Positions 13,266 to 33,090 are shown, numbered from the stretch's first letter. The stretch: DNA of 64,000 nucleotides from Trypanosoma brucei (GCA_000002445.1 CP000067.1:960001-1024000), one strand, 5' to 3'. Made by a program: numbers and translations. Notes: generated by a model from the letters alone, not told the origin.

Positions 13266-16200
13266 ATGTGCAACATCAGATCTAGTTTCTTATGCGCACT
13301 TTCCCCATTTCTTCTCAGCACAACTATTCTTCCTGCTATTTCTGTAGGCAACAAACTTGAGCAGCTGGGGGGCCCTATCATGTTTTCTTTCACGCCTCGG
13401 GTTGGGCTTAGCTTTGACATTTCTGGCAGACGGGGAGCAGATAACTCTGGTTTGTGCCGCCCTCACCGTCTACGCTTAGCCACCGTAGTGATGTTACTAC
13501 TCTTCATGGCTCCCCCAGCTTTATCAGAAGATGTCATGACGGTTAGGGTCTACTCTTTGCTATATAATCCTCTTATACCGGACAACCTATGCGATGCAAT
13601 CAATGCAGGACTCAACGCTTCTCTGGCATCCCGCAAATGGACTGTTGCACCCGATGTCAAGGTAGAGCTCATTTCACCTACGTCTTACAAGATCAAGCCT
13701 GTTGAGGTCCTTCAAGTCGCCTTAGAGCGACACAAAGGCGAGTTCTTTGTCGTCATTGGGCCAGTTGGCGACGGTCAGGCGCTTGCCTCCCTTCCATTGC
13801 TGGAGCGAGAGAATTTGGTCGGTTTTGCTCCGTCCACCGGGTCCAACGCTATGCGTGGATGGAATCCCCACGTATATTTTCTCAGTGCTTCGCCCAATGC
13901 GGAATTGCTCACCCTCGTTCGCTATGCTGTCAGCCAACTGCGCCTGCTTCGGATTGGATTTATGTATCTTCGGGGCATTTCCTTTGGTGATACTGAGTAT
14001 AAGATGACCACGTCACTAATGTCCAGCGTGGGCCGTGAGCTATGTGGTGTGTTTACTGTGGACGGCTTAATGAGAGGACGGGTCAACGATGATGACTTTA
14101 ATACCGCCTGGGAGCAGTTTGCGGAGACGAGACCGCAAGGCGTCATCGCGTTTGCCCCTCCGGCAAAAGACCTCATCAAGTTTGTGAAGAGGTTGTTGTC
14201 TGACAGCCGCACGCACGATGCTTACTTGCTGTCTTCTTCATCGCTTGAGTTCGCACTAGACACGTGGCGCGAGGCATTGGAAGCAGATGGTGCTGAATTT
14301 TTTCTTGGCCAACTCATGCTAACACGAACAGGTCCACTGGCGAGGGACACACACTACCAAGCAATCAGGCGCTTTCAGGATCACATGAGGTCGTACCTGA
14401 GCGCTAATCCTGGAGTGACTGTTTTCAATGGCACGGATAACTTCGACCACGACGACGTGGATGGGGAGCTTATGGTGTATGGGTGGATTGCGGGAGAAGT
14501 GCTGTCCCAGGCGCTAAGTAGTCGGGAGTGGCTAACAAGCAGGAAGGCATTCATGGAGTCACTGTATAACCAGCGCCGTTATGTTATTGACGACCTTGTG
14601 ATTGGTGATTTTGGTGGAGACTGCAAAGGTGGGGCCGGTGAGCGAGGAGCAGCATGCAACTGTAATCAGGGAGGGAATGTGCTGTACATCAATGTCGTCG
14701 GAAACGACGAGCGATTCCACACGGTGCAGGGAGGAACAACAGTCTTTGAACCGTCCAGGTGCCTTGCTGAAAGCGTAAGACTGTACTCTCCACTGAACAC
14801 TTTGATGTTTTTAATGCTGGATCGCGAGTTGGCGCAGGTCTCCAGCGAGGCACTGTACTACGGAGCTAATGTTCTAACTGGTAACGGGAGATTTGGTCAA
14901 TCTGATCGGCTATTTATAAGCATGATACCTTCGCCGTCAAATGCCACCTATTTGGCACTACAGAGCGAGCTTGACACAAGGAGTGTGACGGCTGTGTTTG
15001 GTGTCGTTGATGATGCGATGCTGTCCATTGCCGAAGTTGCCTTCGTTGACCCTGTAATGCTTACACCACGCCTGCATCATCGTGGCAGAAACGTGATTCA
15101 ACTTTCACCCACACTCGAGCAGCAGTTGTTTGTTGTTGTGGGTTACGTGACAAACACAAGTGCCAGCGCCCCTATGTCTGCCATCGTACGTGGAGCTGAT
15201 GCCACCATCATTGAGGTCGCACTGCGGAAGATTGTTTGGATGCACGGCGGAACACTGCAAACGGTAGCTGTGCTGGATGACAATGCCACCCTTGTTGGGC
15301 GCCTGCCAAACCGTGGGAATGCGTTTGTTATTGGTCTTGCCCCCGGTGACCCTTCCTTGCTCGCAGCGCACCTGGATCGCAACCCAGATGTGCGTGTGCT
15401 CATCCCATTCTTCGACGTTGCCCTGATGTATGATGAGCTGGTCAGCGCATTCAATGGTAACCCGAACGCTGAGCGTGTGCAGTTCGCGACAAGTTTACCT
15501 CACTGGGCAGACGCCAATACGTCATCAGAGATCGTAAGAGAATTTCATACCGCATTGCCAGACTCATCAGCATGGAAGCCGCTGCCGTTGCTGGGGTACG
15601 CTGCTGCACGGTTTGCTCAAGCCGTCCTCCCACGCATGGAGTATGTGACACCCAAAACGCTGCTTGACACCATCTACATGCAATCTATCATTACCGCGGA
15701 TGAAATGCGGTACGGTCCTTTTGAAGAGGAAGAGGAGAAGGAGTGCTTCACAGCCAATGACCCAGTCCCTGAACAAGGAGAGGTGTGTGTTGTGAACTAT
15801 GGCGCAACGCGTATTTCCATGTGGTCACTGGCACGTGCATTAAATGCCTCCGTACCGCCATTAACCTCGCCCGTCACGCCATTGATACGCTACGCTGATC
15901 CTAACGCCATTAAGTTGTCGTCCGCACAACTTGCCGGAGTTATTGTTGGTTCCCTCGTCGCCTTGGCTTTGTTTGCTGCGCCTCTGGTGGTGGTGCTCTA
16001 TGTTCTGCGCCGTGGTGCGCGTGACAATGACAGTGCTCCCAAGGAGCCAATGGAGCCCGTAACGCTAATCTTTACTGACATAGAGAGCAGCACAGCGCAA
16101 TGGGCAGCACACCCTGAGCTGATGCCTGATGCCGTGTCAACACACCACCGTCTTATCCGCTCACTCATCGTACAGTACGGATGCTATGAGGTAAAGACTG

Positions 16201-17090
16201 TTGGGGACTCGTTTATGATTGCTTGTAAAAAACCTTTTGCTGCTGCACAGCTTGCGTCCGACTTACAGCGGTGCTTCCTGCGCCATGAGTGGGGCACCAC
16301 AGCATTCGACGATTCGTATCGTGAGTTTGAGAGGCAGCGTGCAGATGACGATAACGAATACAAGGCACCGTCCGCACGGTTGGATCCTGAGGTTTATCGC
16401 CAACTGTGGAATGGGTTGCGCGTGCGTGTCGGGGTCCACACTGGTATTTGCGATATCCGCCGAGATGAGGTGACAAAAGGCTACGATTACTACGGGCGAA
16501 CATCAAACATGGCAGCGCGAACAGAAAGTGTGGCTAATGGTGGTCAGGTGCTGCTGTCGCGCGCGGCATATCTTTCGCTAAGCAATTCAGAGCGTGGGCA
16601 ACTTGACGTGACAGCTCTTGGATCCATGTCGTTGCGTGGCGTCCCTAAGCCTGTTGAAATGTACCAACTAAACGCTGTAGTCGGACGGTCCTTCGCAGCA
16701 CTGAGGTTGGACCGCGAGGTTGTCGAGGACGGGGATCTGTCAAGCACTTCCTTCAGCGATACGGGATCCTTACGTGGCGTATTAAGTGGAACTTCGCAGA
16801 TGATTGACAGCTGTTTGCATGCCGTGCTTGGAACGCTAGGTCCATCCCAAAGACAGAAACTATTGATGCCTTTATGCGAGCGCTGGCAGGTGAGCCTCCC
16901 GCCGTCATCGAAAGCCACGTGGAATGAGGAATATTGCGAAGGAGTTATACGGCGTATTGCAGTGAAAGTGGGTCGAGTGGTCGATCACTGTGCAGCAAGT
17001 GGCAGTGAGCGGTCCGCGAGTACACTTAGGAGTGCGTCACTCATTATAATTTCTAATCATGGATTGGATGGGGAGGCGCGTACCACATAG
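13266..17090 (+). CDS. GRESAG4: Receptor-type adenylate cyclase (GRESAG4-like): extracellular periplasmic-binding-protein-like domain, one TM, class III cyclase catalytic domain. Solitary inverted paralogue of the downstream array
   Basis: 1274-aa ORF. TM segment LAGVIVGSLVALALFAAPLVVVLYVL is followed by cyclase catalytic motifs (VTLIFTDIESSTAQWAAHPELM, YEVKTVGDSFMIACK, RVGVHTGICD, GRTSNMAARTES). About 700 C-terminal aa are near-identical to the three array copies. The real start is probably ATG 13380 or 13491 (see regulatory feature). Confidence 0.9.
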   Translation: MCNIRSSFLCALSPFLLSTTILPAISVGNKLEQLGGPIMFSFTPRVGLSFDISGRRGADNSGLCRPHRLRLATVVMLLLFMAPPALSEDVMTVRVYSLLYNPLIPDNLCDAINAGLNASLASRKWTVAPDVKVELISPTSYKIKPVEVLQVALERHKGEFFVVIGPVGDGQALASLPLLERENLVGFAPSTGSNAMRGWNPHVYFLSASPNAELLTLVRYAVSQLRLLRIGFMYLRGISFGDTEYKMTTSLMSSVGRELCGVFTVDGLMRGRVNDDDFNTAWEQFAETRPQGVIAFAPPAKDLIKFVKRLLSDSRTHDAYLLSSSSLEFALDTWREALEADGAEFFLGQLMLTRTGPLARDTHYQAIRRFQDHMRSYLSANPGVTVFNGTDNFDHDDVDGELMVYGWIAGEVLSQALSSREWLTSRKAFMESLYNQRRYVIDDLVIGDFGGDCKGGAGERGAACNCNQGGNVLYINVVGNDERFHTVQGGTTVFEPSRCLAESVRLYSPLNTLMFLMLDRELAQVSSEALYYGANVLTGNGRFGQSDRLFISMIPSPSNATYLALQSELDTRSVTAVFGVVDDAMLSIAEVAFVDPVMLTPRLHHRGRNVIQLSPTLEQQLFVVVGYVTNTSASAPMSAIVRGADATIIEVALRKIVWMHGGTLQTVAVLDDNATLVGRLPNRGNAFVIGLAPGDPSLLAAHLDRNPDVRVLIPFFDVALMYDELVSAFNGNPNAERVQFATSLPHWADANTSSEIVREFHTALPDSSAWKPLPLLGYAAARFAQAVLPRMEYVTPKTLLDTIYMQSIITADEMRYGPFEEEEEKECFTANDPVPEQGEVCVVNYGATRISMWSLARALNASVPPLTSPVTPLIRYADPNAIKLSSAQLAGVIVGSLVALALFAAPLVVVLYVLRRGARDNDSAPKEPMEPVTLIFTDIESSTAQWAAHPELMPDAVSTHHRLIRSLIVQYGCYEVKTVGDSFMIACKKPFAAAQLASDLQRCFLRHEWGTTAFDDSYREFERQRADDDNEYKAPSARLDPEVYRQLWNGLRVRVGVHTGICDIRRDEVTKGYDYYGRTSNMAARTESVANGGQVLLSRAAYLSLSNSERGQLDVTALGSMSLRGVPKPVEMYQLNAVVGRSFAALRLDREVVEDGDLSSTSFSDTGSLRGVLSGTSQMIDSCLHAVLGTLGPSQRQKLLMPLCERWQVSLPPSSKATWNEEYCEGVIRRIAVKVGRVVDHCAASGSERSASTLRSASLIIISNHGLDGEARTT
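13285..13347 (+). promoter_or_regulatory. Polypyrimidine tract plus AG dinucleotide, a candidate SL trans-splice acceptor for the plus-strand adenylate cyclase
   Basis: The sequence tctagtttcttatgcgcactttccccatttcttctcagcacaactattcttcctgctatttctgtAG (AG at 13346-13347) lies inside the 5' extension of the long ORF. The first ATG after it is 13380 and the next is 13491 (MLLLFMAPPALSED, signal-peptide-like). Trypanosomatid trans-splicing uses a polyY tract followed by AG. Confidence 0.45.
14970..17065 (+). repeat. About 2.1-kb block of the plus-strand cyclase gene that is near-identical, in inverted orientation, to each tandem array copy (e.g. 47290..49390)
   Basis: From codon LDTRSVTAVFGVVDDAML onward the translations of all four copies agree residue for residue, with rare substitutions. 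The same antisense small ORFs recur (15143..15454 matches 48903..49214; 16544..16918 matches 47439..47813). Confidence 0.85.
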
Positions 17091-17879
17091 ATATTTATCC
17101 CTGGCTCGGGAGCCTGCACAATTAAGCTTTTCCCTTTTCAGTTTGGCGTGGAGTGTCCGCGGCGACGCATGCGCATACGTGGCACGTGCTTTTATAGAAC
17201 CCGACAGTTTACTCTGTGTCTTCCCTTCCTTTCACAACGCATTGCGTTATCATTTCTGATTTGAAAATACCATGCAATACCCCTGGCCGGGGGGGGGGGG
17301 GTTAATTCCTCTTTTGCATTCCGTGTATTCGAGAGGAGAGCAATTATTACCACCCAAATTGTTCCATTCGTAAATTTTGTTCGCAAATTATTGAAACTGA
17401 AAATAACTTCCTTAAAGTGTTCAGTGGCTCATAATCCCGCCCCACCATCGTTTTGCCAATTTTTTTCTTCTTTTCCGTTTTCTCCGCAGCAGGAGGGGAT
17501 AAGTAATCCCGGTCTTAAGCTAATTTCAGTACGGCCACATTTTGCATTTTTTTTTCCCCCTTCCCTCTTTTTTATTATGCGCCAGCGCTGCCAGTGGCAT
17601 GCTTGCTGGTGTGCATTGTTTCTTATTTCTACTTTACTACGGCGATGCGATTTTCCTTTTCCAGGAGGGGACCTTGGTGCACCCATGTGCGCAATGGCAT
17701 TGAATGTGGTATGCGTGCCAGTGAGTTTTCATGGGCTTGTTGTGTGTTGGAACGTGTGGCTTCCACCCACTGTGGATGTTTTACCGATTGATGAATCTCC
17801 TTAAAGCTCCCTCCTTTGGAACGTCTGCGTTTTTTTTTCTCTTGTCTTTCATCACCTAGTGATTTGCTTTTCTCTGTAA

Positions 17880-19100
17880 GGAAGATTAGCTGCTTCCATG
17901 CGTCGGCCCCCTCTTCCGCGTAGATACGGTTTGGCACGCCGGCTTGTCTGAGGAACCGGCGGGACCGGGCGGTTGCGGTTGCAGGGTGAGAGTTGTAACC
18001 GCAGCGCGCACCTTTTGGCAGCGAGAACCATCAGGCATTCGGGGTGCCGTTGGGCGACGGAACAGGTGACGTCGAAAGGGAAATAGAGGGAGGGGGTGGG
18101 TTGGCTGCTGTGCAAGCGGCGGGTGCATTGCCAGGTCCCTTTTTAAATGGGTATGTTAATAGCGTCGGCTTCCAGTCCATCCAACAGTGGGGCGGGCGCG
18201 GGAGTCGTGCGTGTTCGGGTGGAGCGGCTTGGGGAGAGGGGGGGGGGGGGAGGGACTGTGGACTGAATTACGTGGCTGAGGCGGCGGGCGTCGCGGAAAC
18301 AAGAGATCCATTAAGTTTGTATGGTGGGGGGGCAGGGCTCCCGGGAACTCCGACCATCCTCATGTGGGGTTGACTGGGCGGTGAAGTGTGAGGGGCTTTG
18401 GGCCTTAAACGGCAATTCCCGCGGAAGCCGGGCGATGAAATTGCCTTATGGAGAACTGGGTCGTTCAAAGGTGTCCGGTCCGAGGGATTGGGTTCTCACT
18501 TTTTTGTCGGACGCGTTCGAGCAAAGCTATCGCGAGAAAATTTTTGGGGCCATCGCCCCACATGGCGGCAAGCCACTTCCCCTCCCCCCAGATTCGCGTC
18601 AGTGCTGACGATGTCGCGCTTGAGAGTTCCTGACGTAACCGTGGTGCAAGGAGGTCAAAAAGCGTAGGAAAAGGAAGGACCGGGCTAGTGGATCACAAGG
18701 ACTTTTTTCTCCCCCCCACCCACCGGGATGCGGCCACCGAGCGAAATAATAATGTGTATTTTTTAAAAGTTGGGAACCATAAGCAAACACAGTGACCGGT
18801 AGGTTGGGGAGCGGACCTGGGCAGGCGAGTGTCGCTGGAGACCACAGCCCCGAGACTTGAGAGATGCAGGTTTCGCTTCTCGAATGCGACCCTCTTCGTG
18901 AAAAGTGCGCCTTTCGGTTATGGTCAAAACCGGCTTTGGCGAACCGAAAGGGGGGACGGGGGAGGGGGCCCAACTGTTTTAAAATTTGGAGCGGAAGTCC
19001 AAGGGCCGGAAGCTCTTCAGCGGGGTCCGATACATACAAAACTGTTATGGAACGCCCTTCTTTTCACGCACAGATATGTAGCGGATTTTCCTAAAATTTT
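17880..19100. other. GC-rich, G-run-containing island inside the AT-rich convergent strand-switch region
   Basis: This stretch has much higher GC than its flanks and contains G13 at 18238-18250 and several GGGG runs. Only glycine-rich artefactual ORFs are present, and no RNA gene could be recognised. Confidence 0.5.
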
Positions 19101-21585
19101 CTCGACACTGAAACGGACTAAATGCCTTGCCGTCGCTTACTCCTGTTCCTATCCGTTGCGTGCAGGCCAGATTATGCTACAAGTTCTTATTATGAAGCAC
19201 GACGTCTAGGGGATAAATGACTGTCGCCGTATGTTTCATTTCGTTAGGTTTAGAGAAGTAGGAATCACGTGGTTCCTTACCACGCTTCTTTCGTGTCGTT
19301 CCCCCCTTTCCATTTTTCTTTTCCTTTTACTGGATTTGGGGTCCGGCCGTCCTTTCATTTGTCCATAATGATAACTTGAGGTGCATTACGAAAATAAGTT
19401 AATTCCACTTGACTGGCAGCCCACATAAAATAAGACCAAGCCATCTCACACGCCACACGGTATCTCAATTAACCTTATTTATTTTTATTATATTTTTAGA
19501 CCCGCTTCCCGCTCATTCGGTGCGTTACATATATTCTGGGAAGTGGGGGGAAGGGGTGCCCCTCCGTCGCTTTTCCCCTTTTTCCGTGTCCTTAGTTATT
19601 ACACTTTATCTTGTTTTGACGGGATGGCCTAAAACTTTTTTGGCGCCTTTCCCTTCCTTTTTTCCGTGAAGCAAACGGTATTACATTTTTTTTTTTTAAA
19701 TAGAAGCCTGCATTATGAATGGTTTTGGGCTTAGGAATGCGGAGTATTATTGTGCAAGGTTATCATTGTATAAATACGCTGGCCCTTTCAACACATTACA
19801 CAGCTGTTTTGCAAGAGGGTGAAAATTTTAGAAAGCCCACACAACCCAACCTTCTCCGCCCCGCCAGGGAGGCGGGTTAAAAACGCTTTCAGCACTTCCA
19901 TATCGTTAAACTATCGTTATAATTCATATTTTGTGTAGGATGATGAGGAAACCTTACTGTTTCTTCGGCATGATAATTATTTTTTATATCTTTCTTTTCA
20001 CCTCGTTTCATGACTTCCCCTTATCGTAGTCTCCACGTTTCCAGTTAATGTGAGTGAGCCGACGGAGGCATCGCTTTTTCGTGCCGTTTCGACTCCCGAG
20101 ATTTCGCCGTTGATGTTGGCAGCGAATAGGAATTTCCCCCGTGGATATTTTTGTGGCGGCACACGGAAATGTGTTCCCTCCACCTTTTCTTTTCTTTTTA
20201 TTGTTTTTTATTTTTATTCATTCCTCTCCCTTCTCTTCTTTACCTTCCCTTAATCGCCACACTCGGGGGTTCCACCGGCGATTTAAATCAAAGTTTTACT
20301 GCCGGCACGTTTGTGTTGAAAGCTCCGGGACCGTTTGGCAACTAAACATCCACGCCAGAATAAATATGCAACTTTGCCGCCCACTGGGGGTTAAAACATC
20401 TCTTTGTCTTAAAAAAAAAATAATGTGGGAACCCAATACACTCGTGGCTGCATTTGTTTGTTGTAATAAATGATAGCGGCACGAGATGTAAGGGATGAGT
20501 AGGGAAAGCAAAAAAAAAAAAAAAAGAAACAATCAAAAACAACAACAGCAGAATTTATGTAACGAAACATGATATGGTGAAGTCAAATGCTACGCAACAG
20601 CGCTCACATGTATGTATGCATATGTATGTGTGAGTTGTTTTCCCACTCTCCCTCATCTTCACTTTCTCTCCTAAGTGTACAAATATATATATATATATAT
20701 ATATTATATTATTTTTTGAGTACCAACTATGGCGGCCAAGTGCCAACAAAACAACAATAATAATAAAAAATAAAAATAAAAGAAAGTGTTTTTGGGAAAT
20801 TACTTTTTTTGTTTGTTTTTTCTTCACCTCCTCTGGTTGGGTTTGTGTCCAATAATTTCTGTTAAGAACGTGCTGCTTTTCCTCCCCATTGCCGCGTGAA
20901 GAGGATTCCGCATTCTTTTGTTTTTGTTTATCTGTTGGACTTCAATATTTCCCTCCTTTTTTCTTTTTTAAAGATTTTTTTTCTTCTTTAAAATCTCCTC
21001 CTTCTCCTCCTCAGTTTTTGTCCCCCCCCTTCCTTCGAGTGAGTTTTTGTCTGTCTTTTAATATAAATAAATAAACGAAAAAAAAAAGGTCTGATAATTA
21101 AATTGAAAATAAAACAAACAACCAAACAAACACACTTAAAAACATCAAAAAACAAAGGAAGGAAATAAGGACATCTTAACTGTTTGAGAGGCCCGAAGCA
21201 CCAAGTTGTAAGGGACACACACGCACACTCATATAATGTGAATAAATAAATAAATATATGTATATACATACATGTGCATATGCGCATGAAATTGTACATA
21301 TGACAGTACTTTCCCGTACCATTCCTCCGTTTCCTTGTTTCGGCAACTGCGCCCACCCAAACACCCAACGCCCACACGCACGCAAAATTATAATATTAAA
21401 AATAAAATACAAAAACAAAAACAAAAAAACAACATTGCATTTGACTTTCCAAAGTCCACGACATCTTTCACAACCACTTTTATTTTGGATCATAGGATGA
21501 GTTGTTGCACAGTGAAGAATTTGTATGTTGGAAAAATAACTTTCATATGTAGTAGTGCATTTCGGCATCAATAAATTCAGTCGTC

Positions 21586-22791
21586 TCATCCTTCACTTTG
21601 AATTTCGTTTCTTTTCTCTCCTGCCGCTTCCATTCCATACGGAGGCGCCACCTCCACGGCAACATTATCGCTTATTTCATATCCGAGCGTATGGGCACGT
21701 TTTCTGAACATATCCCTAAAATGCATTCCATCTTTTACGGGAGAATCACTAATCGAATTTGATGTTGACGATGATGATGTTGATGAAATGGAAGAAGTTT
21801 CTTCCCCATCCATTTGTTCTCGACTTTGTGCGTTGAGGTGTTCGCTGTGCATTTCCTCATCCTGGACTTCATCATTGTTATCTGCTGATTCGGACCGGCT
21901 CGATGTGTCGGGCTGCTGCTCTCGATATGGTTCGTTTATTGCGTTTGGAATTTCACAACGCAAGCGGTCCGCTATTCGTACGGCCTCCGCGAGTTCAAGT
22001 AAATATGATTTGCGGCACCTGAACTTTTGCACTTGGCCGAGTTCGTTAATTCCGTGAAGGAGCAGGAGGGGATCATCATCACTGTTGTTGCTGTTATTAT
22101 TATTATTATTAATAATATTAATATTATTGTTATTATTATCACTATTACCGTTGCTGCCCTCTCCTCGCTCCCGCTCGCTCCATTCGTCATATTTGTACTG
22201 TGGTGGGTAATTTTTTTGTGGTTCCGATGCGCCATCAGCTCTCATGCGTTTCTGTGGGCACATTCCCATAACTGTTGTGGAGTTGAATGTTTGAGGGAAG
22301 TTTCTTTTAACATATGATTGGTGAAAATGCGCTGACGGGTAATTTGCAGGGGATTCCCCCATGACGGGAGTTCCTGCCACCCACTTCACCATACCTTGTG
22401 ATGGATGTTGGGTGTGGAGGTTTTTTTTTGCAACACGAGGCGCAAAATTTAACTTTGTCCCATATGACCTTTTGCATTTATCCCAATATTTCTCATTTAT
22501 TCCTTCCATTCGTGTGACGGGTGCGTGTGGTGGCGCTGTTGTCGTTCGGAATTGAAGAGTTCCACCACCGTAATCGTTTCTTGAAACAAATCCCGTCACC
22601 GGTGCCGGAACATGTGGTGAAGTAATTCCTCTCCTTTGCGTCATGATGTCATGTAATTTTGGATGCATTGGACGTAATGGTTCAAATGAAGGTATATTTT
22701 GTGTTGGGTATCGAAATACGACATATTGAGGGACTGCTGGTGTCGGTTTACGCGCGGCGTTTGGTGCATTTCCACCCATGTTTCTTACCAT
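21586..22791 (-). CDS. Hypothetical protein, 401 aa, low-complexity, with an Asn-rich tract and a Ser/Thr-rich C-terminus
   Basis: Long ORF at the end of the minus-strand gene run. NNNNNINIINNNNNNSNNSDDD is encoded by the imperfect (AAT)n at 22094-22140. No recognisable domain. Confidence 0.55.
   Translation of the reverse strand: MVRNMGGNAPNAARKPTPAVPQYVVFRYPTQNIPSFEPLRPMHPKLHDIMTQRRGITSPHVPAPVTGFVSRNDYGGGTLQFRTTTAPPHAPVTRMEGINEKYWDKCKRSYGTKLNFAPRVAKKNLHTQHPSQGMVKWVAGTPVMGESPANYPSAHFHQSYVKRNFPQTFNSTTVMGMCPQKRMRADGASEPQKNYPPQYKYDEWSERERGEGSNGNSDNNNNNINIINNNNNNSNNSDDDPLLLLHGINELGQVQKFRCRKSYLLELAEAVRIADRLRCEIPNAINEPYREQQPDTSSRSESADNNDEVQDEEMHSEHLNAQSREQMDGEETSSISSTSSSSTSNSISDSPVKDGMHFRDMFRKRAHTLGYEISDNVAVEVAPPYGMEAAGEKRNEIQSEG
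22094..22140. repeat. (ATT/AAT)n microsatellite inside the coding sequence
   Basis: Reads ttattattattattattaataatattaatattattgttattatt. Confidence 0.8.
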
Positions 22792-25700
22792 TGTCTATGT
22801 TTATGTCTTTCTTTTTTTTTTTTCTATTATTTTCTGCTCCTTTCTTTTATTTTCTTCTTTTTCAAAATTCTGCTGCTCAATCCTTTGCCGCGCTCCAGTC
22901 CCTTCTTTTGTGTGGGGATTCAGTTCGGTAAAGTTCAGTTCAGTTCAGTTCAGTAAAGTTCAGCGTTGATCTAAATTAGTTGATTTCTTTTCTTCTTTGC
23001 CAAATATATATATATATATATTTTCAGCTTTTCAACAGATCCCAGAGTTGAAATTCACTTTCCTCGAGCAACGTGAATGACGATGAGGGGTCCCTTCAAA
23101 AAATTTTTTCCTTTAGAAAAACCGCGTAATGTTAAACAACAACAATAATAATAATAATAGCTAACTAACTAACTGAAACTAAAAGTAAAATAAATATAAA
23201 AATATATTACTTGATTATGAGAGTGGGATGAAAAATGCCTACCTTTGTTTTTTTTTCCCTTTGATAAATAAATAAATATATATAATTATCTTTCTTTCTT
23301 GGTGTGTATATCTGCCTGCGGTATCACTGCTAAGCATTTTTTTTTGTGCCAAAAAAAAAAACAAAAAACAAAAAGGAAAGAGATCAAAAAGTAGAAACGA
23401 CAATAAATAAAGCAAATGAAAAGAAGAAAGGAGACATGCGCAACTATAATGAAGGAAAAAGGAATTAAAGAATTTTTTCTTTTGTTTGTTCATTCATGTC
23501 CAAAAGAAGGAAAGTAAAGAAAGAAAGTAAAGAAAGTAAAGAAGGAAAAAAAAAAAAGGGGCATCTCACGTCACTTTAAATATATTCATATTCATATATA
23601 AATATAAATATTAAACAAAAACAAAACGACAACACCAGCACGGCAATACAAATTTCCTCTTCCCATTGGAATAAACCGCACTCAATTGATCACCGATTTC
23701 AGCAACATCATATAACTTTTTTTTTTTGTTCCTTTTCGTTAATTTATTTACAAAATGCGGCCATTGCTTGAAATCGTATTGAGGGCAGTGACATTAAGAA
23801 GCGAAACGAAGGCAAATTTTGTTTCTTTTTTTTTTCTCGTTTTCTTTTTCTCCTAAAAGTGATAAAAAGAAAAAGAAAAAGAAAAATAAAAATAAAAAGG
23901 GCAAACACACTTTATAAGTTGTTTCACCCGCTAAATCAGAAACGTGCTTTACCGAATGTTTGGAAATATAAATATATGAAAACGCATATGTTTATGTGCT
24001 TGGGTGTTTGAGTGAGTTAACACCTACATATAAAAACGATACACAAAATAACCATCATAAATTTCTTTTTCTTTCTTTCTTCATTTTTCTTTCTTTCTTT
24101 TTAATATTTTCATTGACACTGTGGTGCTATTCCTATAAAAATAATACATAATAAATAATACATAATAAATAGACAAATATATTAACTTGAAAGTTAATTA
24201 TACCTAAAATGCAATACTCGCTTTGATGTGTTGGGAGGGATCACTTTCGTTTTGTTGATTAAATTAAATTGAATTAAATTAAATTAGATATTGTTTCGAG
24301 CGCGGAAGCGATACAAAAATACAAGGAAACCATCCGGATATGAAACGTAACAAAAATATAAATATCATTTTGAACTTGCGCGCATATTTGAAAGAAGAAG
24401 AAGAAGAAAAAAAAAAAAGAAAACTTCCCCCGCTTTCCTTTTCCCATCAACACAAAATATAAGAAGCAGTTGACGTTTATAAAATATCATTTATTTATTT
24501 ATTCATGCATGCATGCATGAGTTTATTTAATTTTTTTAAATTTTCAACACTAAAGTCGAGAAACCCAAAAAAAAAAAAACAACAACGACAACAACAAAAC
24601 AAAACAAAACAAAAAAAAAACAATTGAGTGAAGCAACTCGATTTCAGATGGGAAGGTGGAAGGGCAGGTGAGATTAAAAGGTTCCGAGAACCAAAAAAAA
24701 ACAACAACAAAAACAAACAAACAAAATGAACAGCAACAAAAATGAACAGACGAATACAAGAGAGAGAGAGAGAAAGAAAAAAAAATTGATGTTACAACAA
24801 TATTATTATTATTATTATTATCATTATTATTAATTGTGCGTATACGTACGGCTATCTACCGACTAAAATAATATATATATATAGATAGATAGATATTGAT
24901 TCATATTTATATATTTCCCCCCTTTCCCTTTTCTTCCACAAATCAAATACACACCAAATGCATTGTTGCGCTTTCAGTTTACAAATAAATAAATAAATAA
25001 ATTTTATTTACGTGCGAATTCACGCATTTATATTTATATTTGGATTTGCATTTGTGTGTGGAGCAAAAACCAAAACAATGTTCCTTTTTTTTCTTATTAT
25101 TCTTATTATCATTATGCCTCGCTCTTTCTCTTCGGACGCACATGTACTCACTCACTCACTCAGTTACTTACTTTTTATTTCTTTCTCTCTTTACAAAAAT
25201 ATAAATATATAAATAAATATAAATTAAAATATCTATTTTTTTCTTTCTTAATTTATTTTGATTTAAGAATTTATTTTCACCGAATGGCACTCAGCCGAGG
25301 ACAAACAAGACAATTAAAAGCAACACAAACAAACAAACAAAAAAAAACAAAAAAGAAACAAAGTGACTTGCGGGTATGGGCGGGTGGAGGGAAAAATAAA
25401 AGAGGAGGGGAATTATTTCGCTAAAACTTCTCCTGACGTTTAAAAAAAAAAAAAAGAAAACAACAACAAAAAAAAAACAACACCAAAGTGACGATTTCTG
25501 GCACCCGTATGAGTTGTGCGTTGCAAATGTCGATGGAATTTTTACAAGAGCAAAGAAAAAAAACAATGATATGTTCATATCCTTTATTGTTATCAATAAT
25601 ATCGAATAATATTAATAAATATTACTAAATATTATGAAAAAAAAAAGGATTTAAACTAAAACTAAAACAAAGGGAAAACAAACAAAAAGAAGTTAAAATA

Positions 25701-26611
25701 ATAAAATACTTTGAAATATAACCTTCGCAGCGGCGCATGGCAGCGAATTGCAAATGAAAGAAAGAGAAAGAAAGAGTGTGTGTGTATGGGAGACAGGGCC
25801 GCTCACTTCTATCTGCAGTTTGAATATAAATAAATAAATAAATATATATATATATATTTTCCCCTTTTTAATTTATTTTGAATTCTGTTATTTTAGTTAG
25901 TTTTTCTTTTTTTTTTTCGTTATTCTGATGGGTCGTCACCTGAAGCGATGACGATTACTCCCACACGCATACGTGACGAAAATATAAAAAAAATTGAATA
26001 TATATATATATATATTTTCTTTTTCCCTCTTTCTCAAATACGTGTATTTAATTGATTGATTAATTAATTAATTAAACGAGCGAGCGAGCGAATGAGCCAG
26101 TGTACTCATAGAGGGATGCCTGCACGGAACCCGTCTTTCCTCCCCTAATGTTATTATTTTTATTGTTATTATTATTTTTTTTTAAATAAAAAACAGAGGC
26201 AAAACAAAACCCGAAAAAAAAAAAGAAGAAAAGATTAAATAAATAGTAAAAATAAAAATAACACCCGTGCGCGCCCTCCCAAGTTTGCTACTTGAAATAT
26301 GTATCTACATTTGTTTTCAGTACTTTTGTTTTTGATTTTTTAAATAAAAATAACAAGTGATCCGTTGCCACTATTGAACCGTGCGCTGAGATAATATTTC
26401 GCGTGGGAACCACCTGTACACGCACACAAATACATGCATTAAGTATATAAAAGTATATAAAAATATGAATTTGTGTCTGTTTGTGTGTGCTTTTCGTTCC
26501 TTTCTTTTATTTTCTTTTGTTTTGTTTTGCTTCGTTTTTTTTCTTTGTTTTTTCCCTTTTCCTCTTTTTCACTCTCTCATACTTGAGTGATAGAGAGAAT
26601 ATTCCATCACA
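22792..26611. repeat. 3.8-kb AT-rich low-complexity intergenic spacer: poly(A)/poly(T), (TAAA)n, (TA)n, (GAAA)n, (CAGTT)n at 22934-22955, (ATGC)n at 24507-24520
   Basis: Seen directly. No ORF above 125 aa. Composed of homopolymers and short-period repeats without a long-period tandem unit. Confidence 0.7.
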
Positions 26612-28069
26612 CTATTTACAGCCGGAAACCAAAGCTTTTGTACGTTCACTCACTTGCCTCCATTCACAGTCAATTGGCACATTACCTTTCAACCGCTCCT
26701 GTGGAACAGCCTCCAATGCGGTGGAAAAGGCAAATGCCGCTTCGATAATTTTCTCCACCGCGCTCAAAACTTTTCCCGCGCGGTCATCTTTCCCAAGGGA
26801 AAGTTTTACATCAAGTTCCGCATTAGATTGCATTGCCCTCAAACTATAGAGAAAAGGATAAACCTTCCGTCTGCGATTACCTACAAATAAATATTCGTGA
26901 ACATTTTGAATGTGCCGACAGACCGTTTGTGAGCTACACGAGCAGCAATCCTGCAGTTTGTGTCCACCCCTCGATGCAAGAACCTTTCCAAAGTCAACCA
27001 AATGGACAACCGTTGGATCGGTTTGAGATACGACTTCAATAATGGTGGAGAGCTTGTCCTTATGCCGAAGATGTTTCGTGAAGGAAGCACAACTGTCAAT
27101 ACCTCCCAGCATTTCATGTGATGTGCGTATCACAGCCGTCGCTCCACGAAGTTTTGTTATTGCAGTGAGGCTCCGTATTTCTTCTATGCTTTCACCCAAA
27201 TGTTTATCTGGTTGATCATCTGTTATCCATGGGTGATTAAGCAGCTCGCGGGCTGAGGGCCTCTTTGCGGGGTCTCGTGTCAAGCAGCTGCGAATAAACG
27301 ATTTCCCCATGAGGGAAATGGTGTTCCATATGGGCCCACCAAAGCTCCATTTTCCATCAACGATGCGACGGAATATTTCGCGATGTGTGGCACCATAAAA
27401 CGGCATCTTTCCAGAAAGGAGAACAAATGTAATAACCCCTAACGACCATACATCGCATTTGTTGTCATACGTCCCCTTCACTGTGCCATAATAACCCACC
27501 TTAACAACCTCCGGTGCGATATATTTAGCGGTGCCGCAGCAGGCCTTACCGGGCCCGGTGCTCGCCAATCCAAAATCTGAAATGCACACGTCAGACAACC
27601 ACGAGGTGTCGTCACTATCGCGTTGGGGTCGAAGAAGAAGATTTTCCGGTTTCAGATCACGATGTATAATCCCTCGGGAATGGATATGAACTAAACCAGA
27701 AAGTACATTACGCACCAGATCAGCAGCGATCTTCTCATCGTAATGGCTAAGCTCTGCAATCCGGTCAAATACCATACCGCCACTAAGGAGATCCATAACA
27801 ATGTAAATGCTCTCTCTGGTCTCGAAGTAATCCACAAGCCGAGCAACATGCGGGTGGTTGCCGATTTGTTTCATAATGTGCACCTCCAAACTCACGCTCT
27901 GAATATCATTCGGAAGTGTCATGTTCTTGTCAACAATCTTCACAGCATACGACTCCTTAGTTATACGGTTCACACATTTGTACACCAGCGCAAACGTTCC
28001 TTTACCGATCGGAGTCCTGTCAGTCAAGTGGTACTTCCGGTAGAAGGCACTTTCTGTTGTGTATGACAT
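26612..28069 (-). CDS. Serine/threonine protein kinase, CAMK-like
   Basis: Kinase subdomains are visible: GKGTFALV...AVKIV (ATP-binding lysine), HRDLKPENLLL, DFGLA, GTAKYIAPEV, DVWSLGVI. The start was moved from the ORF start 28165 to ATG 28069 (MSYTTESAFYRKYHL...), because the 5' extension MFVWSLTCLSICLL is encoded by intergenic-looking sequence. Confidence 0.88.
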   Translation of the reverse strand: MSYTTESAFYRKYHLTDRTPIGKGTFALVYKCVNRITKESYAVKIVDKNMTLPNDIQSVSLEVHIMKQIGNHPHVARLVDYFETRESIYIVMDLLSGGMVFDRIAELSHYDEKIAADLVRNVLSGLVHIHSRGIIHRDLKPENLLLRPQRDSDDTSWLSDVCISDFGLASTGPGKACCGTAKYIAPEVVKVGYYGTVKGTYDNKCDVWSLGVITFVLLSGKMPFYGATHREIFRRIVDGKWSFGGPIWNTISLMGKSFIRSCLTRDPAKRPSARELLNHPWITDDQPDKHLGESIEEIRSLTAITKLRGATAVIRTSHEMLGGIDSCASFTKHLRHKDKLSTIIEVVSQTDPTVVHLVDFGKVLASRGGHKLQDCCSCSSQTVCRHIQNVHEYLFVGNRRRKVYPFLYSLRAMQSNAELDVKLSLGKDDRAGKVLSAVEKIIEAAFAFSTALEAVPQERLKGNVPIDCEWRQVSERTKALVSGCK

Positions 28070-28269
28070 TTCTGCGTTTCTCCTTCTTTTGTTTGTTGTG
28101 AGAGTGATATATGAATATGTAAGTAACAGACAAATAGACAAGCAAGTAAGCGACCAAACAAACAAACAAATATATATATATATATATTATGGTCTCCCTT
28201 TACGGTAAAAGTGTCACGTTTCTGTCACCGCCTTACGCGTGTCTATATGACTTAAGCCCAAGTGCCCCT

Positions 28270-28345
28270 TTTAAATAAAATGAATGAAGCGGAAGAAGGA
28301 AGGAGGGAAAAAAGATAATAATAATAATAATAGAAATAAGGTGCT
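28270..28345 (-). promoter_or_regulatory. Polypyrimidine tract on the minus strand upstream of the kinase gene, a candidate trans-splice signal
   Basis: Purine-rich on the plus strand (gaagcggaagaaggaaggagggaaaaaagataataataataataatagaaataagg), which is pyrimidine-rich on the coding minus strand. It lies about 200-280 nt upstream of ATG 28069. Confidence 0.35.
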
Positions 28346-29011
28346 TGAGTAAAGGGAGAACAGCAGCACCGCCAACGAAGTACATGCCAAACTCCCTCCC
28401 TCTAAATACGCATATTTTAAAGAATCGAAGGAGAAAAAAAAACAAACACAACAACTCCTTCTCTTGTCTCCGTTATTTTTGTTACTATCGCCGTTATATC
28501 TTGCCACTGCCTCCGTTCGGTGTGTCGTTCTTGGAGACAATACGCATGTGTAAAGACATCAATCACACACACTTTGCATTCTTTAGAACTCTTCCTCTTC
28601 CTCCTTTTTTTTTTCTTCTTCACTACTCAGTGGGCACAATAAGTGATTTTACATTCCAATCGCAGAGTCAGATACTGCAGAACCCTCCGATATTTCTTCA
28701 ATAGTGAGTCAGATCCAACAATACCACCATAATTCAAACAAAAAAAAAGAAGAAATGGAAGCAAATGTAGCATTTAATATATATATACACTTCAAATGAC
28801 CCGGAATAAATCTCATGCAAGCATTGAAGCAACAATAAAGTTATTATGAAAAGCGCAGAGAAGGAAACGCACTGCAAGCACATTTGCTTAACCCTTCTCC
28901 TTCCCGCACTGCTACGATAATCACTACACTTAAATGTGCATGCAAATAAACTACAATACGATTGAATATGCGTGTGACATATGCTGATTCATGCCGAAGC
29001 GAATTGGTTCA

Positions 29012-29419
29012 TCAACTTTCATCGATACCTTTTGAAAGGCGACGGAAGTGCGGCATTGGCGTTGCTCTTTCTTTCAATTCTTTAGGAATGGGACGTCCCT
29101 CCCACACCGTTGGTAATTCACCCGGACGCATGTTTTTAAGATAAGGCACCGCATAAGTCCCCAACCATGACCAAAACACCATAAATGCTATAAAGAATTT
29201 CCACGGGTATTCCTGCAGTTTCTTTAGACGACTACGCCACGGGAGCATTCGGTTGCGCTCCGCTTCTTCTCTATCACGGCGAAGGGATTCCATAAGATCA
29301 AACCGCTCTTTTCCAAGCTTTGCACTACTGACGGCATGATGCGTCGCGCGGCGGGGAAATTTGTGATGCCCCACACCTTTATTGCTTTGAAGCCTAATGA
29401 AAAAACGGTTTCTAAACAT
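29012..29419 (-). CDS. Small hypothetical protein with one predicted TM helix (WKFFIAFMVFWSWLGTYAVPYL), possibly a mitochondrial membrane subunit
   Basis: ORF 29012..29593. Internal ATG 29419 (MFRNRFFIRLQSNKG...) is the more plausible start. Basic N-terminus and a single hydrophobic segment; no motif recognised. Confidence 0.4.
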   Translation of the reverse strand: MFRNRFFIRLQSNKGVGHHKFPRRATHHAVSSAKLGKERFDLMESLRRDREEAERNRMLPWRSRLKKLQEYPWKFFIAFMVFWSWLGTYAVPYLKNMRPGELPTVWEGRPIPKELKERATPMPHFRRLSKGIDES

Positions 29420-29638
29420 AATAACAAAACGGGGCTCTTTGGATTCGGAAATAATCACGTGGGGAGGAGGTGCGGTTACATATATCGGTGCGTGAAGTTG
29501 TCCATGTAACACAACGCGCAAGTACAAAGCGGTCACCCGCGACGCATGAAATACGCCTCTGCAGCATACGCACCGTACCCGCGTATATGTCAATGATTAT
29601 ATTATATAGACTTCATGCTTACTATATACATATATATA

Positions 29639-29671
<33 letters not shown>

Positions 29672-30551
29672 TGTTAGCACTACAAATAAATATGCCTCAT
29701 ATTATGCACTCGTATGTACAGTCGCAGTGTGCTTTAGTCCCCGCGTCTCGGTGTGGGAGCATCTTTTTGTCTCCTTTTTCTTTCCTCTTCCTTCTACATT
29801 AAAGCCGCCACCGACTGCCGGTCATGTCACGCACACAAATTCGCGGCGAACTGATGTTAAGTAATGTGTGAGCCCCTCCTCATCTCCAAAAGTCAAAAAC
29901 AAAAGACTAAAAAACTAAACTACAAGAGAGAACCACCACCCACAAATCTTTTCAGCAATGTTCCGTTATCGTTTTATGTAAGCTCCCTTCTTCTCTTCAC
30001 TTTTATCCGTAAGTGCACGTCCCGGTTCCCTTTCGCTTTCCCGGTAAACTTCATGTCCCAAAGGGAAATATTTTGGCAGCACTCCACGTGAATAATACAT
30101 GTAATTACGCATCATAACAACGACATGATAATGATAACAATATCAACTACGACATGAACTGCGGGGATGTGAATACATTGAGGTCTTAAGGGTACTTTTC
30201 TTGAACACTTAACCCTACAAACAGAGGCCAAGTAAATATGTTAACACCAGAACAACTTCAAGGAGCCCCCCCCCAAAAAAAAATAAGAAAAAATAGAGAA
30301 AGAGAAGAGAAAAAAAAAGATATATATATGCGAGGTAGCACCCAAATCGAACGAGACCAAACAAAAAAAAATTACCTTTGTGCGGGTATGTAACAAAAAC
30401 ATTAATAGTTGTTTGCGCGCTAACAGTTTTACGTTATCCCCCGTGTTTACCCTGTAGCGACATCACGGCTCTCGTGTTTCTTTGTTTCCTTTCTTCTTTC
30501 CTTACTTCTGCTTTCTTTCTTTTTTTTTCCTTCCTCTTCTTCTTCCCTTCT

Positions 30552-33045: not shown

Positions 33046-33090
33046 CACGCACACCCACACCCACACCCACACACACACACGTGCGCGCGA
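33046..33090. repeat. (CA)n/(CCCACA)n microsatellite
   Basis: Reads acacgcacacccacacccacacccacacacacacacgtgcgcgcg. Confidence 0.85.

What the first reader, a model, noticed from the sequence alone, without database searches (positions are those of the whole stretch)
14970..17065. About 2.1-kb inverted near-identical repeat between the solitary cyclase gene and the array 30 kb away
The plus-strand gene shares a near-identical 3' two-thirds with every minus-strand array copy, although its 5' third is far more diverged. That requires ongoing gene conversion across 30 kb between opposite orientations. Large inverted identical blocks are substrates for inversion of the intervening segment. Here that segment holds the whole housekeeping gene run with RPB2 and NOP2, and inversion would flip the convergent strand-switch region.
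Basis: partly seen in the sequence, partly recalled or inferred. Interest (0 to 1): 0.5.

Follow-up and report, generated by a model that had tools for sequence, protein, structure and literature searches.

The report
Inverted cyclase-gene repeat kept alike by conversion
A lone trypanosome adenylate-cyclase gene and a three-copy array 30 kb away, facing the opposite way, share about 2.1 kb of near-identical coding sequence because they keep copying sequence into each other; this process is already known in this gene family, and no flip of the genes lying between them was found.

Summary
The window is Trypanosoma brucei TREU927 chromosome 4. The solitary gene is Tb927.4.3750 and the array is Tb927.4.3860-3880, all receptor-type adenylate cyclases (GRESAG4).

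The repeat is real. Positions 14968-17068 match all three array copies ungapped at 96.5-98.2%, and at 98.7-99.0% over 14968-16742. The edges are razor-sharp. It also missed that the array copies differ from each other in the same variable cassettes.

Recurrent gene conversion is well supported:
- Synonymous divergence is 1.3-1.6 or saturated in the variable parts, but 0.02 in the core.
- Five of the nine fixed 927-versus-gambiense array differences also occur in the solitary gene (P about 5e-9).
- A third strain's solitary gene carries a private array-type patch.

Inversion is not supported. TREU927, DAL972 and a PacBio T. b. equiperdum assembly all have the same arrangement. One DAL972 contig joins a solitary-type 5' part to an array-type 3' end and flank. 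It is gap-bounded, so it could be a misassembly or a crossover product.

Mosaic, concerted evolution of this array was published in 2010. The new detail is that an inverted copy across a strand-switch region takes part. Modest interest.

The parts
13266..17090 (+). Solitary receptor-type adenylate cyclase gene (GRESAG4; Tb927.4.3750, 1274 aa). It is the only long ORF on the + strand between the pericentromeric ORF-poor DNA and the convergent strand-switch region.
   Evidence: ORF. Pfam PF25495, PF25493 and PF00211. 100% identical to XP_844525/AAZ10966. The neighbouring gene is named Tb927.4.3760 by its source. Obado 2007 names Tb927.4.3750 as the centromere-flanking ORF.
13266..14354 (+). 5' variable part (aa 1-363): signal and N-terminal region plus the first periplasmic-binding-protein-like lobe. 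It is an old paralogue of the array sequence.
   Evidence: 62-65% nt identity with many gaps. dS 1.3-1.6. 55-56% aa identity to the array, the same as to the chromosome-5 genes.
14355..14675 (+). Conserved 'island': a second, 321-nt inverted near-identical block. Array counterparts are 49682-50002, 54843-55163 and 60004-60324 (-).
   Evidence: 96.9-99.4% identity, ungapped. dS 0.007-0.045. Sharp edges. Array coordinates.
14676..14967 (+). Variable cassette 'var2' (aa 464-567). It is 292 nt in every copy but unalignable. At least three types exist: the solitary gene, A1/A2 and A3.
   Evidence: 39-45% nt identity. Synonymous sites saturated. A1 versus A3 36-57%. Equal length shown.
14968..17068 (+). 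It contains the core 14968-16742, which covers the membrane-proximal extracellular part, the transmembrane helix (aa about 892-912) and the cyclase catalytic domain (aa 920-1150). It also contains the less uniform tail 16743-17068.
   Evidence: BLASTN 96.6-98.2% over about 2,101 nt. Core 98.7-99.0%. Pfam. PDB 1fx2/1fx4 match aa 920-1152. Hydropathy peak.
16778..16860 (+). C-terminal tail cassette. A3 (and the A3-type copies of DAL972 and T. equiperdum OVI) carry a different sequence from the solitary gene, A1 and A2.
   Evidence: Site tables. 64-69% identity in 100-nt windows.
47289..49389 (-). Repeat arm in array copy A1 (gene 47267-50965, Tb927.4.3860 by gene order). This is the copy nearest the intervening housekeeping genes.
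52450..54550 (-). Repeat arm in array copy A2 (gene 52428-56126).
57611..59711 (-). Repeat arm in array copy A3 (gene 57589-61293), the copy next to the helicase gene.
46516..61414 (-). Tandem array of three 5,161-nt units (cyclase gene plus intergenic spacer).
   Evidence: Self-BLASTN: 46516-54619 versus 51677-59778 at 97.4% over 8.1 kb.
17069..47288 (.). 30.2-kb spacer between the arms. It holds the convergent strand-switch region (about 17091-21585) and ten minus-strand genes. These include Tb927.4.3760, a protein kinase, a ubiquitin hydrolase, RPB2, NOP2 and a Notchless-like WD40 protein. This segment would flip if a crossover occurred.
   Evidence: ORFs and Pfam. No homology between the solitary-gene and array flanks beyond 17068. 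No tRNA or Rfam hits.

Best explanation
The repeat is the homogenised part of two old paralogous loci of the GRESAG4 receptor adenylate-cyclase family in Trypanosoma brucei: the solitary Tb927.4.3750 and the three-copy array Tb927.4.3860-3880.

Shown here:
- The two loci diverged long ago. Their 5' parts and the var2 cassette are saturated at synonymous sites.
- Two blocks are kept at 97-99% identity: 321 nt, and about 2.1 kb covering the membrane-proximal ectodomain, the transmembrane helix and the catalytic domain.
- Sequence has moved between the loci since TREU927, DAL972 and IVM-t1 diverged.

Inferred mechanism:
- A break in one copy is repaired by homologous recombination using the other locus as template, mostly without crossover (synthesis-dependent strand annealing). 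The template may lie on the same chromatid, the sister or the homologue.
- Orientation does not matter for non-crossover repair, so the 30 kb and the opposite orientation are no obstacle.
- Tracts stop where homology stops. This keeps the edges sharp and leaves the diverged cassettes and the flanks untouched. Mismatch-repair rejection of diverged heteroduplex, selection for different ligand-binding surfaces, or both probably reinforce this.
- The conserved island and core flank the var2 cassette, so that cassette could in principle be swapped as a unit.

Crossover resolution would invert the 30-kb spacer. No such product is established.
For: 1. Identity profile with abrupt edges at 14355, about 14675, 14968 and 17068.

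2. dS between the solitary gene and the array is 1.34-1.61 in 13266-14345 and saturated in var2. It is 0.020-0.024 in 591 core codons and 0.007-0.045 in the island. Selection on the protein cannot remove synonymous differences.

3. Baseline without conversion: the chromosome-5 GRESAG4 gene P0094 is as close to the solitary gene as the array is in the N-terminal part (55% aa), but only 60% identical in the core, against 98% for the array.

4. Concerted pattern between genomes. In the core, solitary-to-array distances within a genome are 17-23 differences. Across genomes they are 22-32.

5. Of 9 fixed differences between the TREU927 and DAL972 arrays, 5 (15041, 15104, 15107, 15587, 16091) are also differences between the two solitary genes, in the same direction. 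All five are third codon positions. The expected overlap is 0.09, hypergeometric P = 5e-9.

6. Homogenisation is incomplete. Nine solitary-specific sites, including the cluster 16460-16469, are shared by the TREU927 and DAL972 solitary genes. The solitary core is therefore a separate physical copy in independent read sets.

7. In the PacBio assembly of T. b. equiperdum IVM-t1, the solitary gene's tail has array-type bases at 16827, 16832, 16835, 16843 and 16866. It keeps solitary-type bases at 16820-16826 and from 17069 on. This is a short strain-specific tract.

8. Gene conversion and mosaics in T. brucei arrays, including this one ('array 25, Tb927.4.3880', PHI p<0.001, at least 9 GARD breakpoints), are published (PMC2854126; PMC1855330).
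Against: - The difference between paralogue dS (0.020-0.024) and orthologue dS (0.032) in the core rests on about 8-13 synonymous differences and is not significant on its own. The case rests on the site patterns.
- The concerted sites 15041, 15104 and 15107 flank a retained solitary-specific site (15088, a second codon position). Simple single-tract conversion does not explain this without patchy heteroduplex repair, several short tracts, or selection at 15088.
- No GC3 excess in the converted blocks of the solitary gene (0.54-0.56 against 0.52-0.54), so there is no sign of GC-biased conversion.
- All sequences are assembly consensus sequences of a repeated region. TREU927 and DAL972 are Sanger assemblies of diploid, heterozygous genomes, and IVM-t1 carries many indels (82 gap openings in 21 kb).
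- The mechanism (RAD51-type repair, mismatch-repair barrier) is inferred from general knowledge and not tested here.
Confidence: 0.85

Rival explanations
1. There was one replacement event and no ongoing exchange. The 3' two-thirds of the solitary gene (or of the array founder) was overwritten once, shortly before T. brucei diversified, and the copies have simply not had time to diverge.
For: Core divergence between paralogues (about 1%) is of the same order as the divergence between subspecies (17 differences in 1,775 nt). The mosaic boundaries are identical in TREU927 and DAL972, so the basic architecture pre-dates their split.
Against: A single event before the split cannot produce 5 sites where all TREU927 copies differ from all DAL972 copies at both loci (P = 5e-9). 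It also cannot produce the private array-type patch in the IVM-t1 solitary gene. Retained solitary-specific sites interleaved with shared ones indicate several tracts.
Confidence: 0.07
2. Purifying selection alone explains the pattern. The catalytic and membrane-proximal regions are so constrained that they stay identical, while the ligand-binding part evolves freely.
For: The conserved block contains the catalytic domain. dN/dS in the core is below 1 (0.33-0.39).
Against: Synonymous sites are as conserved as replacement sites are elsewhere (dS 0.02 against more than 1.3). Other functional GRESAG4 genes are only 53-65% identical in the same region. Identity also ends abruptly 22 nt before the stop codon and at var2, not at domain borders.
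Confidence: 0.02
3. The repeat is an assembly artefact. Reads from the array were used to build the solitary core, or the reverse, so the near-identity and the 'concerted' sites are products of consensus building.
For: The core (about 1.8 kb at 99%) is longer than a Sanger read. The DAL972 array is broken by 100-N gaps exactly in this region. The gambiense paper says assembled copy numbers can be arbitrary and that contigs were ordered against TREU927.
Against: The same solitary-specific signature (15088, 16460-16469, 16557, 16714, and the tail with its 3' flank) is recovered in TREU927 and DAL972. For the part that could be read, it is also recovered in PacBio IVM-t1. Solitary-specific and shared sites alternate within less than 70 nt (15041/15088/15104), shorter than one read. 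L001 is gap-free from upstream of the solitary gene to the kinase.
Confidence: 0.03
4. The repeat is an active inversion switch. Crossovers between the arms flip the 30-kb (or larger) pericentromeric segment, and both orientations coexist in T. brucei populations.
For: The arms are inverted, over 2 kb long and about 99% identical in the core, and they demonstrably recombine. DAL972 holds a 6.9-kb gap-bounded contig that is solitary-type from 13512 to about 16556, with 1 mismatch in 3,045 nt to the DAL972 solitary gene. It then continues with an A3-type tail, array spacer and an array-type 5' part. That is the structure of one inversion junction. A simple conversion tract is unlikely to make it, because there is no good homology 5' of 14355 in which to end the tract. 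Inversions of 55 and 110 kb between the subspecies exist on chromosome 10.
Against: All three readable assemblies have the reference arrangement. In PacBio IVM-t1 the copy next to the Notchless-like gene has an array-type 5' part and is preceded by a second array copy and the helicase. RPB2 through to the solitary gene's tail is colinear with the window. No reciprocal chimera (array-type 5' part with solitary-type end ...DGEARTT) exists among the database proteins. The DAL972 contig is bounded by gaps, was placed by reference to TREU927, and its switch point lies in perfectly identical sequence, as expected for a Phrap mis-join.
Confidence: 0.1

Closest known systems
Concerted evolution and sequence mosaics in T. 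brucei tandem gene arrays (Jackson 2007, PMC1855330; Jackson et al. 2010, PMC2854126, Table 2, array 25 = Tb927.4.3880)
   Same: It involves the same gene family and the same array. Published tests already show recombination among the array copies (PHI p<0.001, at least 9 GARD breakpoints), isoforms shared between subspecies, and one gambiense-'unique' isoform. The process is the same: gene conversion producing homogenised blocks and mosaics.
   Different: Those analyses treated tandem, co-oriented copies. In the text I read, the solitary Tb927.4.3750 is not listed as a participant. It lies 30 kb away, on the other strand and across a convergent strand-switch region. Jackson's chromosome 4/8 duplication paper states that no evidence was seen for conversion 'in trans' between the duplicated blocks. 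The gambiense 'unique isoform' turns out to be a chimera of solitary and A3 types.
Long inverted repeats of the T. brucei genome (IR1-IR7; Tschudi et al. 2012, PMC3447711)
   Same: They are kilobase-scale inverted repeats (0.4-10 kb) of very high identity in the same genome. The authors note that the high identity needs explaining.
   Different: The seven listed repeats are on chromosomes 2, 7, 8, 10 and 11, are 99-100% identical, lie within regions of 3.6-11 kb, and yield siRNAs. The chromosome-4 pair is not on the list. It is 96.5-98.2% identical, its arms are 30 kb apart, and both arms are sense-strand coding sequence of separately transcribed genes. A fold-back RNA is therefore not expected, and siRNA production was not testable here.
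Arm-to-arm gene conversion and inversion polymorphism at large inverted repeats in other eukaryotes, such as human Y-chromosome palindromes and the FLNA-EMD inverted repeats (from my own knowledge, not checked here)
   Same: Inverted paralogous blocks are kept near-identical by non-crossover conversion, and the same substrate allows spacer inversion by crossover.
   Different: In those cases the whole arm including non-coding DNA is homogenised, and for FLNA-EMD both orientations are common. Here homology is confined to part of a coding sequence, is interrupted by diverged cassettes, and only one orientation has been seen.
Segmental inversions between T. b. brucei and T. b. gambiense on chromosome 10 (Jackson et al. 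2010)
   Same: They show that inversions of tens of kb in core chromosome regions occur and are tolerated in T. brucei.
   Different: They are at a different locus. No inversion was reported for chromosome 4, and I did not examine whether those inversions are flanked by inverted repeats.

Membership tests
Trypanosomatid receptor-type adenylate cyclase (GRESAG4/ESAG4 family) | Large N-terminal extracellular region with periplasmic-binding-protein-like domains | tested here: met
   PF25495 (E 1.7e-52), PF25493 (E 1.4e-131) and PF13458 in the solitary gene, and the same in A1.
Trypanosomatid receptor-type adenylate cyclase (GRESAG4/ESAG4 family) | Single transmembrane helix followed by a class III cyclase catalytic domain | tested here: met
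   Hydropathy peak at aa 892-912. PF00211 at aa 926-1136. aa 920-1152 match the solved GRESAG4.1 and GRESAG4.3 catalytic domains 1fx2 and 1fx4, E about 1e-117 to 1e-119. The protein is identical to the TREU927 entry named GRESAG 4.
Interlocus gene conversion (concerted evolution of paralogues) | Synonymous divergence in the shared block far below that of adjacent parts of the same genes | tested here: met
   dS 0.020-0.024 (core) against 1.3-1.6 or saturated (5' part, var2).
Interlocus gene conversion (concerted evolution of paralogues) | Paralogues within a genome share variants that distinguish them from their orthologues in another genome | tested here: met
   5 strict sites, all synonymous positions. 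Overlap test P = 5e-9. Within-genome distances are smaller than cross-genome distances.
Interlocus gene conversion (concerted evolution of paralogues) | Discrete tracts with sharp boundaries, and lineage-specific tracts | tested here: met
   Abrupt edges. An array-type patch at about 16827-16866 only in the IVM-t1 solitary gene.
Interlocus gene conversion (concerted evolution of paralogues) | GC-biased signature in converted sequence | tested here: inconclusive
   GC3 is 0.54-0.56 in converted blocks against 0.52-0.54 in variable blocks of the solitary gene. A1 shows 0.53 against 0.46. This is not a necessary feature.
Inversion-mediating inverted repeats (spacer found in both orientations) | Inverted, long, highly identical arms | tested here: met
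   2,101 nt at 96.5-98.2%, core about 99%, arms 30.2 kb apart.
Inversion-mediating inverted repeats (spacer found in both orientations) | Spacer observed in both orientations among genomes or molecules | tested here: not met
   Only the reference orientation is seen in TREU927, DAL972 and IVM-t1. DAL972 contig order is reference-guided. Only three genomes were read and no read-level data were available.
Inversion-mediating inverted repeats (spacer found in both orientations) | Reciprocal chimeric junction copies | tested here: inconclusive
   One chimera (solitary 5' part with A3 tail and array flank) sits in a gap-bounded DAL972 contig. No reciprocal chimera was found among database proteins.
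siRNA-producing long inverted repeats of T. brucei (Tschudi 2012) | Essentially identical arms (99-100%) close together, listed as IR1-IR7 | tested here: not met
   It is not among the seven listed loci, none of which is on chromosome 4. Identity is 96.5-98.2% and the spacing is 30 kb.
siRNA-producing long inverted repeats of T. brucei (Tschudi 2012) | Source of Argonaute-bound small RNAs | not testable with these tools
   No small-RNA data were available.

The most novel reading that the evidence does not exclude
The repeat does undergo crossovers. Under this reading, the gap-bounded DAL972 contig (solitary-type 5' part joined, within the identical core, to an A3-type tail and array spacer) is a real recombinant junction and not a mis-join. 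A 30-45 kb pericentromeric segment carrying RPB2, NOP2 and eight other housekeeping genes would then exist in two orientations in T. brucei. That would move those genes between polycistronic transcription units and relocate a transcription-termination (convergent strand-switch) region.
Probability: 0.1. Interest if true: 0.55.

Novelty: new member of a known kind. Interest (0 to 1): 0.3.

Why it matters
- It shows that conversion in T. brucei surface-receptor gene families is not limited to tandem, co-oriented copies. A copy on the other strand, in a different transcription unit, next to the chromosome-4 centromere and across a termination region, is kept in step with an array 30 kb away.
- There is a practical consequence. 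Short reads, RNAi fragments, probes or CRISPR guides placed in 14355-14675 or 14968-17068 cannot tell Tb927.4.3750 from Tb927.4.3860-3880. Only the 5' part, var2, the tail cassette and the UTRs are gene-specific.
- The layout (conserved blocks flanking equal-length diverged cassettes) suggests how ectodomain variants could be shuffled while the signalling module stays uniform.
- The pair is a defined natural substrate for asking how trypanosomes avoid, or tolerate, crossover between inverted repeats.

Tried and rejected
- Exact-sequence look-ups of the Tb927.4.3760 ORF and the GTG-started Notchless-like ORF found nothing. I reached other assemblies through cluster members and through the kinase instead.
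- Tandem Repeats Finder found no array in the window at score 80 or above, so the centromeric 147-bp repeats are not inside it. At score 30 only low-complexity AT-rich runs appear.
- No tRNA genes and no Rfam families were found, so no RNA gene explains the conserved block or marks the strand-switch region.
- A sensitive BLASTN of the solitary gene's flanks against an array unit gave nothing beyond the last 69 nt of the repeat. The homology is confined to coding sequence.
- Pfam on nine small ORFs upstream of the solitary gene and on 63046-63999 gave nothing. The retroelement (DIRE) nature of 1-13 kb therefore rests on Obado 2007 and not on my test.
- GC3 gave no clear biased-conversion signal.
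- The closest T. congolense relative sits on an 8.7-kb contig with an uninformative neighbour, so the age of the arrangement was not established.
- I first took 63046-63999 for a fourth cyclase copy. BLASTN against L003 shows it is the helicase 3' end.
- I could not retrieve the full solitary gene of IVM-t1. No gene was called there, and 10-kb flanks from the kinase reach only window position 16643.

Full report
[quoted passage not shown] It lies on a 1,590,432-bp record, chromosome 4. The next gene (21586-22791, -) is named Tb927.4.3760 by its source. By gene order the solitary cyclase is therefore Tb927.4.3750, and the three minus-strand cyclases (AAZ10977-79) are Tb927.4.3860.3870 and .3880. 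These tags appear in the literature for this array.

Pfam finds two periplasmic-binding-protein-like domains and a class III cyclase domain in both gene types. Residues 920-1152 match the solved GRESAG4.1 and GRESAG4.3 catalytic domains. A single hydrophobic helix lies at about aa 892-912.

Between the two loci lie ten minus-strand genes, including a protein kinase, a ubiquitin hydrolase, RPB2, NOP2 and a Notchless-like WD40 protein. The ORF at 63046-63999 is the end of a helicase gene and not a fourth cyclase.

**The observation.** Self-BLASTN aligns 14968-17068 to the reverse complement of 47289-49389, 52450-54550 and 57611-59711. Identity is 98.2, 97.7 and 96.6% over about 2,101 nt. The first-stage coordinates are right to within 3 nt.

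A 100-nt profile and segment counts refine the picture:

| Segment | Coordinates | Identity to array copies |
|---|---|---|
| 5' variable part | 13266-14354 | 62-65% |
| Island | 14355-14675 | 96.9-99.4% |
| var2 cassette | 14676-14967 | 39-45% |
| Core | 14968-16742 | 98.7-99.0% |
| Tail | 16743-17068 | 83-94% |
| Last 22 nt and 3' flank | 17069 onward | unrelated |

- The var2 cassette is 292 nt in every copy but is unalignable.
- The tail includes a cassette at about 16778-16860 in which A3 differs from all the others.
- The edges are abrupt at nucleotide resolution.
- The array copies differ from one another in the same variable segments. The real pattern is conserved blocks interrupted by isoform-specific cassettes across all four genes, and not simply 'solitary gene diverged, array uniform'.

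**Is it conversion?** Four independent lines say yes.

1. *Synonymous sites.* Nei-Gojobori dS between the solitary gene and the array copies is 1.3-1.6 in the 5' part and saturated in var2. It is 0.020-0.024 in 591 core codons and 0.007-0.045 in the island. Purifying selection on the protein cannot produce this.
2. *A baseline from another paralogue.* The chromosome-5 genes (P0094) are as similar to the solitary gene as the array is in the N-terminal part (55% aa). They are only 60% identical in the core, where the solitary gene and the array are 98% identical.
3. *Comparison with T. b. gambiense DAL972* (L001 solitary locus, L002 array).
   - In the core, solitary-to-array distances within a genome are 17-23 differences. 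Across genomes they are 22-32.
   - Of the 9 fixed differences between the TREU927 and DAL972 arrays, 5 (15041, 15104, 15107, 15587, 16091) are also differences between the two solitary genes, in the same direction. All five are third codon positions.
   - The expected overlap is 0.09 sites. Hypergeometric P = 5e-9.
   - Nine solitary-specific sites, including the cluster 16460-16469, are shared by both solitary genes. Homogenisation is therefore incomplete, and the solitary core is a separate physical copy in two independent read sets.
4. *A third strain.* In the PacBio assembly of T. b. equiperdum IVM-t1 (L011), the solitary gene's tail carries array-type bases at 16827, 16832, 16835, 16843 and 16866. 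It keeps solitary-type bases on both sides. This short tract is private to that lineage.

The paralogue-versus-orthologue dS comparison (0.02 against 0.032) is not significant by itself. The site patterns carry the argument.

One detail is not explained by a single simple tract. Concerted sites at 15041, 15104 and 15107 flank a retained solitary-specific, amino-acid-changing site at 15088.

**Mechanism.** Sequence exchange between the loci after strain divergence is shown. The rest is inferred from general knowledge of homologous recombination in T. brucei.

- A break in one copy is probably repaired from the other locus without crossover, for which orientation and a 30-kb distance are irrelevant.
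- Tracts end where homology ends. This keeps the edges sharp and leaves the cassettes and flanks untouched.
- Mismatch-repair rejection of diverged heteroduplex, and selection on the ligand-binding surface, may reinforce the borders.
- The island and core bracket var2, so that cassette could be exchanged as a unit.
- GC3 gives no clear sign of biased conversion.

**Inversion.** A crossover inside the arms would flip 17069-47288. It would put the ten housekeeping genes downstream of the solitary gene and move the convergent strand-switch region next to the array.

A crossover leaves each tail attached to its own flank. The informative link is therefore between a 5' variable part and the flank beyond the repeat.

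- In TREU927 and in DAL972 (L001, gap-free from upstream of the solitary gene to the kinase), the solitary 5' part is linked to the 3760 side.
- In PacBio IVM-t1 the copy next to the Notchless-like gene has an array-type 5' part and is preceded by a second array copy and the helicase.
- In the same assembly, RPB2 through to the solitary gene's tail is colinear with the window.

No inversion is seen in any of the three. The gambiense genome paper reports inversions only on chromosome 10. It also states that DAL972 contigs were ordered against TREU927, so that assembly is weak evidence for order.

**An open point in DAL972.** The 'array' gene CBH10697 clusters with the solitary gene.

- It lies on a 6.9-kb contig bounded by two 100-N gaps.
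- The contig is solitary-type from window-equivalent 13512 to about 16556, with 1 mismatch in 3,045 nt to the DAL972 solitary gene.
- It then switches, inside identical sequence, to an A3-type tail, array spacer and the start of an array-type copy.
- This is probably the single gambiense-'unique isoform' listed for this array in 2010.
- A simple conversion tract is unlikely to make it, because there is no good homology 5' of 14355 in which to end the tract.
- It is therefore either a mis-join across 1.8 kb of near-identical sequence or a crossover-type product.
- No reciprocal chimera exists among database proteins.

I consider misassembly more likely.

**Comparison with what is known.** Conversion and mosaics in T. 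brucei tandem arrays are established (PMC1855330). For this very array the published figures are PHI p<0.001 and at least 9 GARD breakpoints (PMC2854126).

I did not find any statement in the searchable literature that Tb927.4.3750 takes part. It is an inverted copy across a strand-switch region. It appears only as the ORF flanking the chromosome-4 centromeric 147-bp repeat domain (PMC1868937).

A genome-wide survey of long inverted repeats lists seven, none on chromosome 4 (PMC3447711). Those have 99-100% identical arms lying close together and yield siRNAs, so this pair does not meet those criteria.

I therefore file the finding as a new member of a known kind.

**Verdict.** The conversion reading is supported and strengthened. 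The inversion reading is unsupported but not excluded. Interest is modest (0.3).

Noticed in passing
window 8717-8916 and 12835-13034: A 200-nt inverted repeat (98.5% identical, arms 3.9 kb apart) lies just upstream of the solitary cyclase gene. Both arms are also present in DAL972 at about 96.5%. One arm overlaps a small ORF (12718-13077) that DAL972 annotates as a gene.
   Followed up: partly
window 1-13265: These 13 kb have no ORF of 250 aa or more, no Pfam hit in the small ORFs and no tandem array. Obado et al. 2007 place the chromosome-4 centromeric 147-bp repeat array and head-to-head degenerate retroelements between Tb927.4.3740 and Tb927.4.3750. This stretch is therefore pericentromeric, and the solitary cyclase appears to be the only gene of its transcription unit.
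   Followed up: partly
window 22800-26600: About 3.8 kb of AT-rich, low-complexity intergenic DNA (GC 28-35%) lies between Tb927.4.3760 and the kinase gene. It is full of short A/T-rich microsatellites.
   Followed up: no
L002 10137-17029 (T. b. gambiense DAL972 chromosome 4): A gap-bounded 6.9-kb contig carries a chimeric cyclase (CBH10697): a solitary-type 5' part and core joined to an A3-type tail and array spacer. It is either a mis-join or a real recombinant.
   Followed up: partly
L002, L003, L009 compared with window 46516-61414: Array copy number and order differ between strains. TREU927 has three copies and PacBio T. b. equiperdum IVM-t1 has two. DAL972 has at least five assembled pieces. 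In T. equiperdum OVI an A3-type copy, not an A1-type copy, lies next to the Notchless-like gene.
   Followed up: partly
L011 (T. b. equiperdum IVM-t1): The region is colinear with the window but has 82 gap openings in 21 kb. No gene was called for Tb927.4.3760 or the solitary cyclase, probably because of uncorrected long-read indels and not because the genes are lost.
   Followed up: no
proteins P0006 and P0032: Two full-length trypanosome-type receptor adenylate cyclases (56% and 47% identical to the solitary gene) are deposited as Schistosoma mansoni proteins on 17-20 kb contigs. This looks like trypanosomatid contamination of that assembly.
   Followed up: no
window 16544-16918 (-): A 124-aa antisense ORF lies inside the conserved core and tail of the solitary gene. 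There is no evidence that it is anything but chance.
   Followed up: no
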